Source: a phage. From it: DNA of 44,996 nucleotides. The stretch is taken from sequence record PZ789432.1; one strand, written 5' to 3'. Positions 1 to 44,365 of this stretch are shown in pieces. Under the pieces are notes generated by a model. The model ran no database searches. It was given only the letters and a program-made list of their open reading frames with translations, and was not told the DNA's origin. The translations under genes were made by a program, and so were the position numbers. How positions within the stretch are numbered: position 1 is the first letter of the stretch; every line of letters begins with the position of its first letter.

Positions 1-257
1 GCCCTCGCCGGGTTGCCCCCATATGGGGTAGATCGGCGGTTGACCTAGGAATTGGGCTGGGCTGGTCCGTCTTCGACGGGTGGGCGAGGGCTTGCCGAGG
101 TCTGCTCTTAGTGGCTGCACAAGGAGAACGCCTAGGAAGCGCTAGGGCACGCCTTAGTATTGGACAAGGTGATTGCCTTAGTGAAGCCTCTTAGTGCATT
201 CCTTAGGTCATTCAGGGCGTTTATGAGGGATTGACAGGGTGGATGCGTGTGTGGGCT
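1..257. repeat. left direct terminal repeat of the linear phage genome
   Basis: 1..257 recurs in the same orientation at 44742..44996. Contains the perfect palindrome CCCCATATGGGG at 17..28. The two copies differ by one substitution and a 2-nt indel at the inner edge (ggatgcgtgtgtgggct vs ggatgggtgtgggct). Confidence 0.85.
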
Positions 258-645: not shown

Positions 646-674
646 TTGACAAGGCCGTCTCAATATAATACTAT
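646..674 (+). promoter_or_regulatory. sigma70-like early promoter (TTGACA, 17 bp spacer, TACTAT)
   Basis: Perfect -35 TTGACA at 646..651; -10 TACTAT at 669..674 after a 17-bp spacer; upstream of the first early genes, as for T7 A-type promoters. Confidence 0.5.
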
Positions 675-817
675 TCATCACGTAGGCAGCACTGAGGTGC
701 TTAGTAGCCAGCTAGTAAGGCATACGAAGAGACTAGCGCTTACATTGCTCTTTAACAATTTGCTTAGTGTAACCTATGTATGCCGTGGTTAATTACTTAT
801 TGAATGAGGGATTAACT

Positions 818-997
818 ATGACATTAAACAACCGTGAACTATCCGTTCTCTTCACTCTGTTGTGCTACATGATTCGTAACAACGAATTACTTACAGACGA
901 TGAGTTAGCCTTGTATCACCGCTTTCTTAACGAAGGTTGGACCGATACAATTAATCAATACCGTAACATGATAGATGAGTTGAGGGAGGGTAAATAA
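818..997 (+). CDS. hypothetical early protein (59 aa, mildly acidic)
   Basis: ORF track 776..997; preferred start ATG 818 preceded by GAGGGA; stop overlaps the next start (TAATG). Confidence 0.6.
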   Translation: MTLNNRELSVLFTLLCYMIRNNELLTDDELALYHRFLNEGWTDTINQYRNMIDELREGK

Positions 998-1221
998 TGT
1001 ATCAGCATGAGGTTTTCTTTGAGTCAGCTAGTGAAGCTATCCGCTTCCTTGAAGATATGCTACAAGCTGGCGTAGGTGTTGATGTACATCACTTCCTACT
1101 AGATTACGACACTGAATATCACCGAGTTACCTTAGTATCTGAGTATGACAACCAAGTCATTACTGAGTACCTAGGCAGTGAAGATTACGATTACGATGAA
1201 GTAATCACGACAAATCTCTAA
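997..1221 (+). CDS. hypothetical early protein, 74 aa, strongly acidic and aromatic-rich (candidate DNA mimic / anti-defense)
   Basis: ORF track; SD GAGGGAGGG upstream; about 17 Asp/Glu against 2 Arg and no Lys, 7 Tyr; translationally coupled to the upstream ORF; immediately upstream of ocr. Confidence 0.65.
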   Translation: MYQHEVFFESASEAIRFLEDMLQAGVGVDVHHFLLDYDTEYHRVTLVSEYDNQVITEYLGSEDYDYDEVITTNL

Positions 1222-1229
1222 ATTAACTG

Positions 1230-1258
1230 TTGACAGCCACGGCATACAAGGTTACATT
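1230..1258 (+). promoter_or_regulatory. sigma70-like early promoter (TTGACA, 17 bp spacer, TACATT)
   Basis: TTGACA at 1230..1235, -10-like TACATT at 1253..1258. Confidence 0.4.
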
Positions 1259-1350
1259 AAGCATCAAGACGGCGACGTCTTTAAACATCCCGCTCTTTAA
1301 CAATATGGTTTGTGTCTTGATAGGCTAACTAACTAACTAAGGTAATTATC

Positions 1351-1461
1351 ATGAAAGGTTTAATTTGTGTAGAACGTATGGTCAATGGTAAACTTGAAAT
1401 ATTACCACTGGAAAACCAATCTAGCTTCAAAGAGTGGTATGGCTGTTTCTCACTGATTTAA
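1351..1461 (+). CDS. hypothetical small early protein (36 aa)
   Basis: ATG 1351 preceded by ctaactaactaAGGtaattatc, the same leader context as ocr; below the ORF-track size cutoff. Confidence 0.3.
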   Translation: MKGLICVERMVNGKLEILPLENQSSFKEWYGCFSLI

Positions 1462-1612
1462 GGTAAAGGCTGGCATTAGTCAGCCTATCAAGGCGCAAAC
1501 CAAGCTCTTTAACAATTTGGATGGTAGCTTCTTAGTCTGGATAGGTTAAACCTAGGGGATTCTCTTGAGTCTCCTATAATGTAACCTAACTAACTAAATG
1601 AGGATTAATAAC

Positions 1613-1966
1613 ATGGCTATGTCTAATATGACTTACTCTCAGGTTTACAACACCGCTCATGCTGCATTAGTTGAACGTATCTGGAATGATGCTATTGATT
1701 GTATTGATAACGCACATGATGCAATCCATGATGCGGCGGATAGTGCTGTACCAATCTATTATGCTGACATCTTCTCCGTGATGGCGAGTGAAGGAATTGA
1801 TCATTTCTTCGAAGACTCCGGCCTGATGCCAGACACTAAGGATGTAACCGTAGTATTGCAAGCCCGTATCTATGAGCAACTCACAATTGATCTATGGGAA
1901 CGTGTTCAGTATATGATTGTTGAATACGTCAACTCCGCCGAATATTTAGAAGAAGAAGAGGAATAA
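1613..1966 (+). CDS. ocr: Ocr-like anti-restriction protein (T7 gp0.3 homolog, DNA mimic)
   Basis: Translation MAMSNMTY...[49 protein letters not shown]...EEEEE aligns over its full length with T7 Ocr as I remember it (117 aa); SD GAGG upstream of ATG 1613. Confidence 0.9.
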
Positions 1967-1968
1967 GA

Positions 1969-2082
1969 ATGGAAAAGCTATACAACTTCATCTTTTCAGA
2001 CGGTGTAACCCTGAAGTGTTCCCTGCGTTTCGCACAAATTCGTGAGGAAGTACTAGGCACTACATACAAACTATTTAGCTGA
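1969..2082 (+). CDS. hypothetical small protein (37 aa)
   Basis: ATG 1969 with GAGG 8 nt upstream; overlaps a promoter-like sequence; weak. Confidence 0.25.
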   Translation: MEKLYNFIFSDGVTLKCSLRFAQIREEVLGTTYKLFS

Positions 2083-2098
2083 CACTATAAGAGAAGGC
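2074..2098 (+). promoter_or_regulatory. phage RNAP promoter-like sequence (variant: atttagctgacactataagagaag)
   Basis: Matches the SP6-type core GACACTATA but has A in place of the +1 G; activity uncertain. Confidence 0.35.
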
Positions 2099-2158
2099 TT
2101 AACAAGGCGTTGCTACGGTAGCGCCTGATTAAACTTTCACTTACTAGGAGTTAAGACT

Positions 2159-2449: not shown

Positions 2450-3373
2450 ATGACTACTGAAAACATCCTCCTGTCTGTCCGTGAAGCTGCAACCGCTGAG
2501 ATTAAGCAGCATTTGGATAATATCGGCACTTCTTACATCAAAGTTGGCGCTTGTCTGAATGAATTACGCGGTGATTTCGAAGGTCAAAAAGACTTTTTAG
2601 CTTATGTCGAATCAGAGTTCGGCATCAAGAAAGCACAATGCTACAAGCTGATGAGTGTAGCCCGTGTCTTTGAAGGAGACGAACGCTTTAAAGGTGTGGC
2701 TATGCGTGTAATGCTGGCGCTTGTTCCTTTCGCTGATGAAAATATGATCATGGAGAAGGCCGCAGAACTCGCCGCAGAGGGCAAGCTGGACACTAACGCC
2801 GTAAACGCCCTGATTGATCCTAAGAAAGAGACAAAGGCCGAGACGGTACAACCTAAGGTTGAGTCGGTAAAACCGCAGGAGAACGCGACTGAGGCCGCAG
2901 AAACTATGCAAGGACATGCAACCTTTGAGGATTTCATATTAGAGAAGGCGAAAGAGGAGCTACAAAGTGTGCCGCCAGCAAGTGAGTCGGATGACGACAA
3001 ATCAGCACCGTGGGAAGAGGAAAGCAAGCCGGAAGCGCCAAAGACTGCGCCACTGGACAACACGGCTAACACCGAGAGTGCCGCTATTGCTGGCCTTCTG
3101 GCACAAATTAAAGCACTGACTGAGCAATTACAGGCAGCCAATGACCGCATCGCCTCCTTAAGTAGCGCACGCGAAAGCAAGAAGGCAGCCGCGCCTATGC
3201 TGCCGCAATTCAAATCTTCCTGCTTCTATGCTCGCTTAGGTTTAAGCGCTGAGGAGGCAACGAAGAAAACAGCAGTTAACAAGGCACGCCGCGAACTGGT
3301 TAAGCTAGGCTACGGCGAAGGCCATGAAGCATGGCCCTTAATCTCTGAGGCAGTAGAAGAATTAACTAAGTAA
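2450..3373 (+). CDS. hypothetical early protein (307 aa), Ala/Glu-rich with a C-terminal coiled-coil-like region
   Basis: ORF track 2441..3373 starts at GTG; ATG at 2450 preceded by AAGGTG. Sits where T7 has gp0.7, but I see no kinase motifs. Confidence 0.7.
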   Translation: MTTENILLSVREAATAEIKQHLDNIGTSYIKVGACLNELRGDFEGQKDFLAYVESEFGIKKAQCYKLMSVARVFEGDERFKGVAMRVMLALVPFADENMIMEKAAELAAEGKLDTNAVNALIDPKKETKAETVQPKVESVKPQENATEAAETMQGHATFEDFILEKAKEELQSVPPASESDDDKSAPWEEESKPEAPKTAPLDNTANTESAAIAGLLAQIKALTEQLQAANDRIASLSSARESKKAAAPMLPQFKSSCFYARLGLSAEEATKKTAVNKARRELVKLGYGEGHEAWPLISEAVEELTK

Positions 3374-10595: not shown

Positions 10596-10703
10596 ATGCC
10601 ACGTGATTATGATTCTGATTGGGACTATTATGACTCAATGAATCCAAAACCCGAACGTTCAGATGATTACTACGAAACAGAGGCAATGTATGAAGACTAT
10701 TAA
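10596..10703 (+). CDS. hypothetical small acidic protein (35 aa)
   Basis: ATG 10596 six nt after GGAGG; MPRDYDSDWDYYDSMNPKPERSDDYYETEAMYEDY. Confidence 0.3.
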   Translation: MPRDYDSDWDYYDSMNPKPERSDDYYETEAMYEDY

Positions 10704-19585: not shown

Positions 19586-20529
19586 ACATCTTCCAATTCC
19601 TAGGTCTTCCAGAAGACCACCGCAATCATCCATTCATGCTGGTGAAGCATCGCGGTGAAGTTCCTGAGAAGAAACTTACTTTTCCATGTTATGCACAGGT
19701 GAAACGAGATGGAATATTCAGTGCTGTTGTGGTGCGCAATGATGGTGCTGTTGCCGTCTTTGGTCGTACTGGTAAGAAGCTCGCAAATGTTGAAGCCTTG
19801 GAAAAGACATTTAGTGTATTTCCTGTCGGGTTGTATCTTGGTGAGTTGCAATCTATGGCTGTTGATGTTTATCTTGAAGCTCTGTCAGGAGTGGTAAACC
19901 CTAATCGTACAGAGCCACTTGACTTCATAGGCCAGCAGATTAAAGACAACCTGTATATCGACTTCTTCGATATGTTAACTATTAAGGCATTCCATGATGG
20001 ATTCACTGATGTTTCTTATCTCAAACGTTACGATGCTTTACATCGTCGTATCGGCACTCATCTTAGCGGGTGCAACGCTATCCTTCCTATCACTCCTTGC
20101 CATAATGAGCGAGAAGTTGAAGCGTTTGCGCAAGAGCAAATAGATGCAGGACGTGAGGGTGCTGTATTCAAACTGGACTGCGATTATGAAGCAGGACACA
20201 AAGGTTATCGTCAGACTAAAGAAGTCCGTAAGGTAACTTATGACCTTACTTGTATTGGCTTTGAAGAAGGTAAAGGTAAATACAAAGGTAAGGTAGCTAA
20301 CCTCATTTTCAAGTGGAAAGGGGGCAAGACAATCAAAGCTATGCTCGGTAAAGGGTGGACTCATGCAGATGCAGAACAGATGTTCCACGATATTAAACAT
20401 GGCGGACGGTTGAATGTCATTGGTAAAATCTTTGAAGTCAAAGGTCTTCAGGATTCAAGCAAGGGCAACATTCGTCTGCCCAAAGCGGGAGAATTAAGAC
20501 ATGACAAAGATGAACCAGATTTCTTTTGA
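19582..20529 (+). CDS. ATP-dependent DNA ligase
   Basis: 315 aa; adenylation motif I AQVKRDGIF (KxDG); SD AAGGAGG. Confidence 0.85.
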   Translation: MNIFQFLGLPEDHRNHPFMLVKHRGEVPEKKLTFPCYAQVKRDGIFSAVVVRNDGAVAVFGRTGKKLANVEALEKTFSVFPVGLYLGELQSMAVDVYLEALSGVVNPNRTEPLDFIGQQIKDNLYIDFFDMLTIKAFHDGFTDVSYLKRYDALHRRIGTHLSGCNAILPITPCHNEREVEAFAQEQIDAGREGAVFKLDCDYEAGHKGYRQTKEVRKVTYDLTCIGFEEGKGKYKGKVANLIFKWKGGKTIKAMLGKGWTHADAEQMFHDIKHGGRLNVIGKIFEVKGLQDSSKGNIRLPKAGELRHDKDEPDFF

Positions 20530-20716
20530 TAGCATGAAGGCAACTCGTGCAGTTGAGGTAGCAGAAGCTATCTTTGAAACTTTATCATGTGGCATGGAAG
20601 TGCCATATACTTTACTTGCTGATGCAGAAGAACTTGGTCTTTCTGTAGAAGCTATCCAAGAGAAGGTTGACGAATTATATGGTACAGACGAAGAAGAAAC
20701 CGACGATTTCATTTGA
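20501..20716 (+). CDS. hypothetical small acidic protein (71 aa)
   Basis: ORF track; start overlaps the ligase 3' end; acidic C-terminus EEETDDFI. Confidence 0.55.
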   Translation: MTKMNQISFDSMKATRAVEVAEAIFETLSCGMEVPYTLLADAEELGLSVEAIQEKVDELYGTDEEETDDFI

Positions 20717-42652: not shown

Positions 42653-44365
42653 ATGCTTCAAAGATTAAGTGCTTACTTGGTGAAGTACAAGAGTAAACTA
42701 ACAGGTACTATTGAGCGCCTGCTATCTGATAAACTATCGGATACAATAGACGTTGCGGATTTTGGAGTTAATCCCTCTTCTAATGACAACAGGCAAGCCC
42801 TTCAAGCTGCATTCAATGCGGTCAGATTGCTAGGCGGTGGTACTGTATCAGTCACTAAAGCTGGCGAATATAAACTCAGTGGTACTGTTGAGATATTTGC
42901 TAATACACACTTCAAGGTTGCTAAAGGTGTAACATTTGTACGTGACTACGAAACAGGAGATACGCTATTCAGATTATCACAAGGGCAAGCTAGTAATGTA
43001 ACAGTCAGTGGAGGTATCTATGAAGGCAATGGTCACACTAAGGGAGATACACCTTTTGTAGTATTTGCATCTACTAGTAATAATGATTTGAAGTTTGAAG
43101 GCATAACAGTTAACAATGTAGTGGACTACCACGCCATAGATTTAGCAGATTGGAACAACGTAGTTATTCGTGATTGTAAATTCCTAGGGTTTAAGAATAC
43201 AGGCAGTCGTAACTTCTCAGAGGCTATACAGTTAGACCCAGGTCTTATTACAGTTGGTCACTATGTACAGTCAAGCGGTATGCTGGTGGAGAATTGCTAT
43301 GCTGGTCCAAACCCAGAATCAGGGTTTGGGGGTTATGGTGCACTAATCGGAAATCACGCCTCAGCTTATGGTGTACAGGACAACAATATCCGTATCTTGA
43401 ATTGCACTACAGATGGTGCTCTCTTTGCAGGTGTACGTGTATTTAACTGGAAAAACTGGACAGTACGTGGTTGTACCTTTAGAAACTCTAATGCAAGAGG
43501 TGTTCATGTTACACCTGTCTCCTCTCAAACTAAACCGCAAGGAACTCGACAAGGTAGTGTTGTAGATTGTACTTTTGATGGCGTAAGAACACCAGTGCTA
43601 ATTGCTGCACCATCTTGGCCTTTTACAGATATTAGTGACATTTGGCATGACCATATTGAAATTTCTAATAATACTATGATCCTCACAGAGGATGTATCCT
43701 ATGGTGTAGATGCAAGGTGGTGTAAGAATTTAATTGTAAAAGGTAACACTGGTTCTGGCGGCTTAGGGTTAATCGGTTTACGCTTTGGAACAAAGTACCA
43801 CATCGAAGGTAATACTTGGGAAAACGGAAGAGGTAGTGGGATTTGGTTAGGTGAGTCTGATGCTACTACATTCATTGGTACTGGCTTATCTGGAGAAGGT
43901 ATACTTAGTCGTAATATCCTCTCTAAATTAGGGCAATATGGTATTCATGTAAACTGCAAGGCTGGCGGTCTAGTGATTAAAGCTAATAATATGAAGGAAG
44001 TATCTACAGCTGAAGCAGGTAGGCACTTCATTAGCATAGACACAGGAGCTAACAACATCCTAGTAGAAGGTAATATTGGAGTAGATGGAGAAAGCCCTAA
44101 CAAGCCAAGCTTGGGTATTCGTGTTACTTCTTCTTGTTCCAATATTAAACTCATTGGCAATGATTGCTATGGTACACAGGCGCCTCAGAATAACCAAGGG
44201 GTTGGTTCTAGTACGGTGATTGTTTATGGACTAAATGGCAATCCTACAACTTTAGGCGTAGGTGCACCTGTTGGCTCTTTAGCAACTGATATCAATGGGT
44301 CTGGTGGTAGTACATTGTACGTTAAAGAATCTGGTACATCTGCTCAAGGTTGGGTTGCAAAGTAG
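42653..44365 (+). CDS. tailspike 2 (pectate-lyase-fold beta-helix depolymerase)
   Basis: 570 aa; SD AAGGAGG; N-terminal DVADFGVNPSSNDNRQALQAAFNA...GGGTV typical of pectate-lyase-type tailspikes, followed by beta-helix-like repeats. Confidence 0.85.
   Translation: MLQRLSAYLVKYKSKLTGTIERLLSDKLSDTIDVADFGVNPSSNDNRQALQAAFNAVRLLGGGTVSVTKAGEYKLSGTVEIFANTHFKVAKGVTFVRDYETGDTLFRLSQGQASNVTVSGGIYEGNGHTKGDTPFVVFASTSNNDLKFEGITVNNVVDYHAIDLADWNNVVIRDCKFLGFKNTGSRNFSEAIQLDPGLITVGHYVQSSGMLVENCYAGPNPESGFGGYGALIGNHASAYGVQDNNIRILNCTTDGALFAGVRVFNWKNWTVRGCTFRNSNARGVHVTPVSSQTKPQGTRQGSVVDCTFDGVRTPVLIAAPSWPFTDISDIWHDHIEISNNTMILTEDVSYGVDARWCKNLIVKGNTGSGGLGLIGLRFGTKYHIEGNTWENGRGSGIWLGESDATTFIGTGLSGEGILSRNILSKLGQYGIHVNCKAGGLVIKANNMKEVSTAEAGRHFISIDTGANNILVEGNIGVDGESPNKPSLGIRVTSSCSNIKLIGNDCYGTQAPQNNQGVGSSTVIVYGLNGNPTTLGVGAPVGSLATDINGSGGSTLYVKESGTSAQGWVAK

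What the first reader, a model, noticed from the sequence alone, without database searches (positions are those of the whole stretch)
818..1966. Early module: Ocr homolog preceded by two translationally coupled acidic small proteins
1613..1966 is an unmistakable Ocr (T7 gp0.3) homolog, the DNA-mimic inhibitor of type I restriction enzymes. Immediately upstream, 818..997 and 997..1221 form a TAATG-coupled pair. The second (74 aa) is extremely acidic and aromatic-rich (net charge about -15), the compositional signature of DNA-mimic anti-defense proteins, but I could not match it to Ocr, ArdA or any other family. Sitting at the first-injected genome end, these are the best candidates here for an undescribed anti-defense function.
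Basis: partly seen in the sequence, partly recalled or inferred. Interest (0 to 1): 0.75.

Follow-up and report, generated by a model that had tools for sequence, protein, structure and literature searches.

The report
K1-5-type phage early operon before Ocr
The window is a complete K1-5/K1E-like coliphage genome, and the flagged region holds its known first three early genes: two small proteins of unknown function, one of them a strikingly acidic variant of a fast-evolving phage-only family, and a genuine Ocr anti-restriction protein. It is a sensible but untested anti-defence candidate, not a new discovery.

Summary
All sequence observations hold. ORF A (818..997, 59 aa) and ORF B (997..1221, 74 aa) overlap in TAATG. 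B has net charge -15 and 11 aromatic residues. ORF 1613..1966 is a full-length Ocr, 66% identical to T7 Ocr.

The window is a complete Vectrevirus genome (SP6 supergroup) with 257-bp terminal repeats. A, B and Ocr are K1-5 genes 1, 2 and 3. These ORFs have been catalogued for years: A is phrog_9275, and B is phrog_6403, which includes SP6 gp4. Both families have no assigned function.

Both genes are under purifying selection (dN/dS 0.13 and 0.16). B models confidently (pLDDT 91.5) as a ferredoxin-like beta-alpha-beta-beta-alpha-beta domain. Its best structural matches are generic CutA/PII-like folds, and no known DNA mimic appears among the top matches.

The extreme acidity is not a family trait. 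K1-5-type alleles have a median net charge of -12. Other alleles, from SP6, Klebsiella, Citrobacter, Lelliottia and Pectobacterium phages, have a median of -4.

B diverges far faster than its flanks, and it follows unrelated upstream ORFs in other genera. It therefore behaves as an exchangeable allele, not an obligate partner of A.

The most likely role is an early stoichiometric inhibitor of a host nucleic-acid-binding protein. Whether that target is a defence system or a housekeeping protein is unresolved.

The parts
1..257 (.). Left direct terminal repeat of the linear genome
   Evidence: Bases 1-257 match the last 257 bases of the window at 99.2% identity.
646..674 (+). Sigma-70-type promoter-like site P1 (TTGACA, 17 nt, TACTAT), upstream of A and B
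   Evidence: Consensus scan gives 10 of 12 matches. This is a consensus match only. Its position is analogous to the T7 A promoters.
747..758 (+). boxA-like element 1 (GCTCTTTAACAA)
   Evidence: Three exact copies on the plus strand, with 0.36 expected by chance. It matches the gamma-proteobacterial boxA consensus GYTCTTTAANA (PMC5725501). T7 has the same sequence at nt 812-830, downstream of promoter A3.
818..997 (+). Gene A (K1-5 gene 1 homologue): 59 aa, three-helix protein, function unknown
997..1221 (+). Gene B (K1-5 gene 2 homologue): 74 aa, hyper-acidic ferredoxin-like protein, function unknown
1230..1258 (+). Sigma-70-type promoter-like site P2 (TTGACA, 17 nt, TACATT)
   Evidence: Consensus scan gives 10 of 12 matches.
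1292..1303 (+). boxA-like element 2
1351..1461 (+). Unannotated 36-aa ORF inside a variable cassette slot between B and Ocr
   Evidence: 100% conserved in K1-5, VEc3, AAPEc6 and two metagenomic phages. Replaced by other small genes in K1E, mutPK1A2 and LL11, and absent in CrRp3. No PHROG or Pfam hit, so coding status is uncertain.
1504..1515 (+). boxA-like element 3
1613..1966 (+). Ocr (T7 gp0.3 homologue), 117 aa, net charge -20
   Evidence: PF08684 at 142 bits. phrog_2568 'ocr-like anti-restriction' at E 2.8e-46. End-to-end alignment to PDB 1S7Z with 77/117 identical residues.

Best explanation
Shown by the evidence. The region is the standard left-end early operon of a K1-5/K1E-like Vectrevirus. 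A host-RNA-polymerase promoter and a boxA element precede gene 1 (A) and gene 2 (B). A second promoter/boxA unit, a variable cassette slot and a third boxA then lead into Ocr. A and B are genuine genes under purifying selection. B is the K1-5-clade allele of a fast-diversifying early protein family restricted to SP6-like phages (Molineuxvirinae); the family is phrog_6403 and includes SP6 gp4. B has a compact ferredoxin-like fold. It is unrelated to Ocr, ArdA or any T7 protein. It is not an obligate partner of A.

Inferred mechanism. B is made within the first minutes of infection. It acts as a stoichiometric protein-binding inhibitor of a host protein. Its working surface is proposed to be the loop-rich end of the domain, formed by the beta2-beta3 hairpin (DYDTEY) and the alpha2-beta4 loop (SEDYDYDE). 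That end is mildly acidic across the whole family. In the K1-5 clade it has gained about ten extra negative charges interleaved with tyrosines. Such a surface would compete with nucleic acid for the basic groove of a DNA- or RNA-binding host protein. The target is most plausibly an immune nuclease or sensor acting on incoming DNA, so B would complement Ocr. A is a separate small helical effector with a more conserved target.

Confidence. The descriptive part carries about 0.9. The value given below refers to the mechanistic inference, namely a nucleic-acid-competitive anti-defence inhibitor.
For: Purifying selection is shown.

The B-family gene lies just upstream of the anti-restriction gene, sometimes with one or two small variable ORFs between them. 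That gene is Ocr in K1-5, K1E, SP6, CrRp3, Kpp-61, LL11 and VEc3. It is a SAM-hydrolase-type gene in phD2B and PP1.

Divergence is mosaic and resembles that of Ocr. In CrRp3 against the window, the RNA polymerase N-terminus is 97% identical, A 85%, the 307-aa protein 86%, Ocr 55% and B 29%.

B has the highest negative charge density of any ORF of at least 50 aa in the genome.

The acidic gain is concentrated in the loops named above (alignments).

Leading injected regions of Autographiviridae are reported to be variable and rich in anti-defence genes (PMC12455610).
Against: No experiment or paper on these proteins was found.

The acidity is clade-specific. Other alleles of the family have a median net charge of -4, with some at 0 or +1. 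DNA mimicry therefore cannot be the ancestral function of the family.

The family is nearly universal in the subfamily regardless of host genus. That pattern fits a conserved housekeeping target as well as it fits a defence target.

Two phages isolated on the same host strain, APEC 45, carry different allele types: ULINTec4 has a near-neutral allele and ULINTec6 an acidic one.

Confidence: 0.33

Rival explanations
1. A and B are host-takeover factors aimed at conserved housekeeping proteins, not anti-defence proteins. Candidate targets are nucleoid-associated proteins such as HU or H-NS, RNA polymerase, and the cell-division or cytoskeletal machinery. Precedents are T7 gp0.4, gp0.6, gp2 and gp5.5, and SPO1 Gp46.
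For: Nearly every SP6-like phage has a B-family gene, whatever the host: Escherichia, Salmonella, Klebsiella, Citrobacter, Lelliottia, Raoultella or Pectobacterium. A is 60-98% identical across these hosts and has many invariant polar residues, which suggests a conserved partner. SP6-like phages have no homologue of the T7 early takeover proteins, and no T7 protein matches the A or B family HMMs (best E about 0.05 against 56 proteins). Small acidic early proteins that target HU are documented (title and abstract of PMC8892312, seen).
Against: B diverges far faster than its flanks and exists as at least six allele classes. That is unusual for a protein docking onto a conserved housekeeping target. 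An inhibitor of host RNA polymerase made as the very first product would also interfere with the phage's own early transcription; this point is inference from T7 biology.
Confidence: 0.3
2. A and B are two subunits of one functional complex, for example effector plus chaperone or adaptor. The TAATG coupling would then enforce their stoichiometry.
For: The start of B overlaps or abuts the stop of the upstream ORF, with a Shine-Dalgarno inside that ORF, in all 11 phages examined. The order A then B is conserved in K1-5, SP6, CrRp3, Kpp-61, LL11 and VEc3.
Against: The partners are freely exchanged. A alleles 85-87% identical to the window's A are paired with B alleles anywhere from 29% to 92% identical to the window's B. 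K1E has an extra gene 1.5 inserted between A and B. In PP1, phD2B and a metagenomic contig, B follows unrelated ORFs. Klebsiella phage VLCpiA2a has B with no A. The variation at A's C-terminus tracks the gene junction, not the B allele type.
Confidence: 0.1
3. B is a CutA/PII-like oligomer that binds a small ligand, either a metal or a nucleotide. It could act as a sponge for an immune second messenger, so charge would be incidental.
Confidence: 0.07
4. The two small ORFs are annotation noise with no function.
For: They are short and have no curated family. Gene callers disagree on A's start, giving 73 or 59 aa.
Against: dN/dS is 0.13 and 0.16. Both have strong Shine-Dalgarno sites. The AF2 models are confident. 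Both are conserved in 65-102 GenBank phage genomes and about 100-116 protein clusters at 90% identity.
Confidence: 0.02

Closest known systems
Escherichia phage K1-5 genes 1, 2 and 3; K1E gp1/gp2/gp3; SP6 gp3/gp4/gp5
   Same: Same genes in the same order at the same left-end position. A is 98% identical to K1-5 gp1 and B is 92% identical to K1-5 gp2. The exact B sequence occurs in 5 GenBank records.
   Different: The window's Ocr is the T7-like full-length allele, whereas K1-5 and K1E carry an allele only 58% identical over the core. The window, like K1-5, lacks the small acidic ORF found upstream of A in SP6, CrRp3, mutPK1A2 and VEc3. SP6 gp4 is a much less acidic allele of B (net -7).
T7 Ocr (gp0.3, Pfam PF08684), a DNA-mimic inhibitor of type I restriction-modification and BREX
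   Same: ORF 1613..1966 is a true member. B shares only three things with Ocr: very early expression, small size and high negative charge density (-0.20 per residue for B, -0.17 for the window's Ocr using its 117-aa start, -0.24 for T7 Ocr).
   Different: B has no sequence relationship to Ocr (no Pfam hit; E 1.4 against T7 gp0.3). Its predicted fold is alpha/beta ferredoxin-like, whereas Ocr is a largely helical elongated dimer (the latter from established knowledge of PDB 1S7Z).
CutA1 and PII-like ferredoxin-fold proteins
   Different: Identity is 10-14% and there is no family HMM hit. B lacks a T-loop. It is confined to phages, on contigs of about 44 kb. This is fold resemblance only.
Other small acidic phage inhibitors of host nucleic-acid-binding proteins (T7 gp2, T7 gp5.9, SPO1 Gp46, Ugi, ArdA)
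   Same: Small size, acidity and an early or host-directed role. This is the 'works like' analogy behind the best explanation.

Membership tests
Ocr (PF08684), tested on ORF 1613..1966 | Family HMM score above the curated cut-off | tested here: met
   142.2 bits against a cut-off of 25, E 8.5e-42. phrog_2568 at E 2.8e-46.
Ocr (PF08684), tested on ORF 1613..1966 | Full-length colinear alignment with T7 Ocr, and a strongly acidic composition | tested here: met
   Residues 1-117 align to 1-117 of PDB 1S7Z with 77/117 identical. Net charge is -20.
Ocr (PF08684), tested on ORF 1613..1966 | Binds and inhibits type I restriction-modification enzymes as a DNA-mimicking dimer | not testable with these tools
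   Requires biochemistry or plating assays.
Ocr or ArdA DNA mimics, tested on ORF B 997..1221 | Sequence membership by family HMM | tested here: not met
   No Pfam or NCBIfam family at E of 1 or below except sub-threshold noise (MmeI_TRD at E 0.09; MCM at E 0.11). The B-family HMM against T7 gp0.3 gives E 1.4.
Ocr or ArdA DNA mimics, tested on ORF B 997..1221 | A known mimic fold | tested here: not met
DNA mimic as a functional class, tested on ORF B | Surface array of carboxylates that matches DNA phosphate spacing and competes with DNA for a target | not testable with these tools
Composition alone (net -15) is suggestive. Acidity is not conserved in the family.
phrog_6403 (unknown function), tested on ORF B | Full-length family HMM match | tested here: met
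   E 2.5e-28 over positions 1-74 of the protein and 1-69/69 of the profile. SP6 gp4, CrRp3 cds3 and PP1 gp04 match the same family at E 1e-24 to 1e-32.
phrog_9275 (unknown function), tested on ORF A | Full-length family HMM match | tested here: met
   E 8e-40 over positions 1-58 of 59.
CutA1 / PII-like, tested on ORF B | Fold similarity | tested here: met
CutA1 / PII-like, tested on ORF B | Family HMM match; a T-loop between beta2 and beta3 (for PII) | tested here: not met
   No Pfam hit. The beta2 (28-36) and beta3 (39-48) strands are joined by a two-residue turn.
Pentatricopeptide repeat proteins, tested on ORF B | A significant individual repeat match | tested here: not met
   The PDB and representative-library hits to PPR proteins come from summing 5-11 sub-threshold matches of about 7 bits each to one 22-residue helix-turn segment. 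No single stretch passes. This is a repeat artefact.
rrn-type boxA antitermination element, tested on 747, 1292 and 1504 | Match to the consensus GYTCTTTAANA on the transcribed strand, downstream of a host promoter | tested here: met
   Three exact GCTCTTTAACAA copies, with 0.36 expected by chance. The consensus is from PMC5725501. Two of the three lie about 75 and 35 nt downstream of sigma-70-like sites.
rrn-type boxA antitermination element | NusB/NusE binding and antitermination activity | not testable with these tools
   Requires biochemistry or nus mutants.

The most novel reading that the evidence does not exclude
B would be a new structural class of nucleic-acid mimic. It would be a ferredoxin-like early protein 'supercharged' in the K1-5 clade, from about -4 to about -13, to block a DNA-binding immune protein of E. 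coli. Because near-neutral alleles of the same family survive in sister phages, the family would offer a natural before-and-after series showing how a DNA mimic evolves from an ordinary protein-binding domain.
Probability: 0.18. Interest if true: 0.65.

Novelty: new member of a known kind. Interest (0 to 1): 0.38.

Why it matters
If B, and possibly A, neutralise a host defence, SP6/K1-5-type phages would carry a second counter-defence layer expressed even before Ocr. Several of these phages are phage-therapy candidates against K1-capsulated, uropathogenic and avian-pathogenic E. coli, Salmonella and Klebsiella. The allele carried could then help predict host range. The family's charge dimorphism gives a clean experimental handle: swap acidic and neutral alleles in one phage backbone. 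If B instead targets a housekeeping protein, it would fill the gap left by the absence of T7-type takeover genes in this subfamily. In either case the present evidence only nominates a candidate. The genes themselves are already catalogued.

Tried and rejected
(1) Curated family searches (Pfam, NCBIfam) gave nothing above noise for A or B.

(2) PDB sequence profiles returned only a PPR repeat artefact for B and E values above 0.29 for A.

(3) A profile search of 1.84 billion representative proteins found only four genuine clusters, all phage-like, plus PPR artefacts. One hit is a 190-aa protein with a B-like C-terminal domain. It sits on a 1.1-kb contig, so its context is uninformative.

(5) A- and B-family HMMs against all 56 T7 proteins found no homologue.

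(6) I first suspected that the recurring GCTCTTTAACAAT belonged to RNase III hairpins. RNA folds of the three regions were no better than shuffles (z of +0.8, +0.2 and -0.7). The element was reinterpreted as boxA.

(7) Rfam returned only a sub-threshold miRNA-model hit on both strands at 2082-2153.

(8) Seven full-text literature searches, plus reading the accessory-gene screens and the anti-defence encyclopaedia, gave no functional data for K1-5 gp1/gp2 or SP6 gp3/gp4. The SP6 genome paper was not available.

(9) Type I site avoidance in the leading region: there are no EcoKI, EcoBI, EcoAI or EcoR124I sites in the first 7 kb. With only 2-7 sites per genome this is not significant.

(10) Co-folding A with B was not attempted.

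Full report
WHAT IS IN THE SEQUENCE

The window is a complete linear phage genome. Its first 257 bases recur at the right end at 99% identity. A 1.85-kb query around the finding matches 99 GenBank phages. The best matches are 94-98% identical Escherichia phages of the genus Vectrevirus (Molineuxvirinae, the SP6/K1-5/K1E group).

- ORF A runs 818..997 (59 aa) and ORF B runs 997..1221 (74 aa). They overlap as TAATG at 995-999, and each has a strong Shine-Dalgarno sequence.
- B has 17 acidic and 2 basic residues, giving net -15 and pI 4.05, with 11 aromatic residues. It is the most acidic ORF of at least 50 aa in the genome, per residue more acidic than Ocr.
- A is only mildly acidic (net -4).
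- ORF 1613..1966 is a bona fide Ocr. It hits PF08684 at 142 bits against a cut-off of 25. It aligns end to end with T7 Ocr (1S7Z) with 77/117 identical residues.

WHAT THE GENES ARE

A, B and Ocr correspond to K1-5 genes 1, 2 and 3, to K1E gp1, gp2 and gp3, and to AAPEc6 gp01-03. PHROGs places A in phrog_9275 and B in phrog_6403, both 'unknown function'. The ORFs have been catalogued for years, but nobody has assigned them a function.

- I found nothing on them in seven full-text searches, two accessory-gene screen papers or an anti-defence encyclopaedia.
- Both are real genes. Pairwise dN/dS over ten phages is 0.13 for A and 0.16 for B.
- A occurs in 102 GenBank phage records.
- The exact window sequence of B occurs in five records.
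- The 73-aa version of A offered by some gene callers is an artefact. Codons 776-817 (MYAVVNYLLNEGLT) are the remnant of a small upstream ORF. That ORF is intact in CrRp3, SP6, mutPK1A2 and VEc3 but deleted here and in K1-5.

STRUCTURE

B models with high confidence (pLDDT 91.5, pTM 0.78) as beta1-alpha1-beta2-beta3-alpha2-beta4, the ferredoxin-like topology.

- Against predicted viral structures, the only strong matches are uncharacterised proteins of other SP6-like phages, CrRp3 and PP1.
- PDB and large-library profile hits of B to pentatricopeptide-repeat proteins are artefacts. They come from summing many 7-bit matches of one helix-turn segment.
- Neither family has a homologue in T7.

THE FAMILY VIEW CHANGES THE INTERPRETATION

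A profile built from diverse members recovers 98 clusters. All are 49-74 aa and single-domain, mostly on phage-sized contigs of about 44 kb. Members include SP6 gp4, CrRp3 cds3, LL11 gp04, VEc3 gp03, Kpp-61 ORF5, phD2B_004 and PP1 gp04, all confirmed as phrog_6403.

Net charge is bimodal. The K1-5-type clade has 46 clusters; it also carries a five-residue insertion and the EDYDYDE loop, and its median is -12 (range -6 to -15). The 49 clusters binned as 'other' have a median of -4; apart from one K1-5-type sequence (P0014, -13) that the motif filter misplaced into this bin, they range from +1 to -9. Extreme acidity is therefore a derived feature of one clade, not the signature of the family. 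DNA mimicry cannot be the family's ancestral mechanism.

The family-wide conserved features are:
- the N-terminal M-(Y/F)-x-H-E-(I/V)-(Y/F) strand;
- a Y/F-x-V-x-L strand;
- the C-terminal (Y/F)-(D/E)-(D/E)-V-I-T strand.

From the fold topology, the beta2-beta3 hairpin and the alpha2-beta4 loop lie at the same end of the domain. That end is mildly acidic in all alleles and takes most of the extra charge in the K1-5 clade.

EVOLUTIONARY BEHAVIOUR

B diverges far faster than its neighbours. Against CrRp3, a phage of the same genus, the identities to the window are as follows:

| Protein | Identity to window |
|---|---|
| RNA polymerase N-terminus | 97% |
| A | 85% |
| 307-aa early protein | 86% |
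| Ocr | 55% |
| B | 29% |

Ocr shows the same allelic mosaicism, with alleles at 88-97% and 55-60% identity to the window's. The upstream partner of B is not fixed:
- K1E has an extra gene between A and B.
- PP1, phD2B and a metagenomic contig place unrelated ORFs in front of B.
- VLCpiA2a has B without A.

In every case the start of B overlaps or abuts the upstream stop, with an internal Shine-Dalgarno. The coupling is a conserved expression arrangement, not evidence of a two-protein machine.

In every genus examined, the B-family gene lies just upstream of the anti-restriction gene, sometimes with one or two small variable ORFs between them. That gene is Ocr in most phages and a SAM-hydrolase-type gene in phD2B and PP1.

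EXPRESSION CONTEXT

Two strong sigma-70-like sites lie at 646-674 and 1230-1258, each matching 10 of 12 consensus positions. Each is followed by an exact GCTCTTTAACAA, and a third copy precedes Ocr. That is three exact copies where 0.36 are expected by chance.

The sequence fits the gamma-proteobacterial boxA consensus GYTCTTTAANA (PMC5725501). It also occurs in T7 at nt 812-830, downstream of promoter A3. My first idea, that these were RNase III hairpin arms, was not supported by folding.

Host RNA polymerase probably transcribes A, B and Ocr as an antitermination-modified complex during genome entry. This step is inferred.

MECHANISM AND ITS RIVALS

I rank the explanations as follows.
- About 0.33: B is an early stoichiometric inhibitor whose acidic, tyrosine-rich loop surface competes with nucleic acid on a host DNA- or RNA-binding protein, most plausibly an immune factor. 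It would complement Ocr.
- About 0.30: the target is a housekeeping protein and B is a host-takeover factor. The near-universal distribution of the family and the lack of T7-type takeover genes in this subfamily favour this.
- About 0.10: an obligate A-B complex. Partner swapping argues against it.
- About 0.07: a CutA/PII-like ligand binder or sponge. There is fold resemblance only, and no T-loop.
- About 0.02: non-genes. This is excluded by the selection and conservation data.

NOVELTY AND VERDICT

The Ocr gene is already known. A and B are known ORFs of unknown function. By sequence and fold they belong to no characterised anti-defence or takeover family. They fit the known kind 'small early phage effectors'.

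The useful new points from this analysis are:
- the confident ferredoxin-like model;
- the clade-specific supercharging;
- the Ocr-like mosaic divergence;
- the independence of A and B.

This is a reasonable experimental candidate, not a demonstrated novelty. Interest is 0.38.

Noticed in passing
window 747-758, 1292-1303, 1504-1515 (near-copy at 44274-44285): Three exact copies of GCTCTTTAACAA, a perfect match to the boxA antitermination consensus GYTCTTTAANA. Each lies upstream of an early gene unit. T7 has the same sequence at nt 812-830, after promoter A3. This suggests Nus-factor-modified host transcription of the early region.
   Followed up: partly
window about 1355-1468 (ORF 1351..1461): A variable cassette slot between gene B and Ocr, flanked by repeated promoter/boxA units. 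Here it holds an unannotated 36-aa ORF that is 100% conserved in K1-5, VEc3 and AAPEc6. K1E, mutPK1A2 and LL11 carry different small genes in this slot, and CrRp3 and one metagenomic phage have none. The repeats may mediate cassette exchange.
   Followed up: partly
window 776-817: In-frame codons MYAVVNYLLNEGLT upstream of gene A. They are the stump of a small acidic ORF of the SP6 gp2 / CrRp3 cds5 family (…YEAYFNSLDEGEEALSFAEF…), which is intact in sister phages but deleted here and in K1-5. This explains why databases hold both 73-aa and 59-aa versions of gene 1.
   Followed up: yes
window 1325-1342 and 1586-1603: CTAACTAACTAA(C/A)… motifs place stop codons in all three frames immediately before the Shine-Dalgarno of the next gene (the 36-aa ORF and Ocr).
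   Followed up: no
window about 100-650: Dense array of short CTTAGT(G)-containing direct repeats, with several families of 22-32 nt units, in the non-coding left end between the terminal repeat and the first promoter.
   Followed up: no
window 20501-20716 and 10596-10703: Two further hyper-acidic small ORFs of unknown function. One is 71 aa with net charge -14 (phrog_5860). The other is 35 aa with net charge -9 (phrog_15473).
   Followed up: partly
window 1613-1966 compared with L002, L012, L013, L014: Ocr itself exists as two allele classes within Vectrevirus. The T7-like full-length type found here is 88-97% identical among some phages. The K1-5/K1E/CrRp3 type is only 55-58% identical over the core. 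Several GenBank records mislabel this gene as 'protein kinase'.
   Followed up: partly
window 2450-3373: A 307-aa early protein (phrog_4571, unknown function) is conserved in every SP6-like phage examined, at 46-95% identity. It occupies the position just upstream of the RNA polymerase gene, where T7 has its gene 0.7 kinase. It has no Pfam or NCBIfam family.
   Followed up: no
window 2082-2153: An extended inverted repeat between the 37-aa and 75-aa genes. It gives a sub-threshold Rfam miRNA-model hit on both strands (25 and 22 bits, cut-off 97). It may be an RNA processing or terminator hairpin. A terminator-like hairpin also lies at 2393-2416.
   Followed up: no
L016 422-994 (metagenomic contig, protein P0168): A 190-aa predicted protein in which a B-family domain (residues 118-185, starting with its own MHKHEIF) is fused in frame to an unrelated 117-residue N-terminal part. 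It is either a natural fusion or loss of the upstream stop codon.
   Followed up: partly
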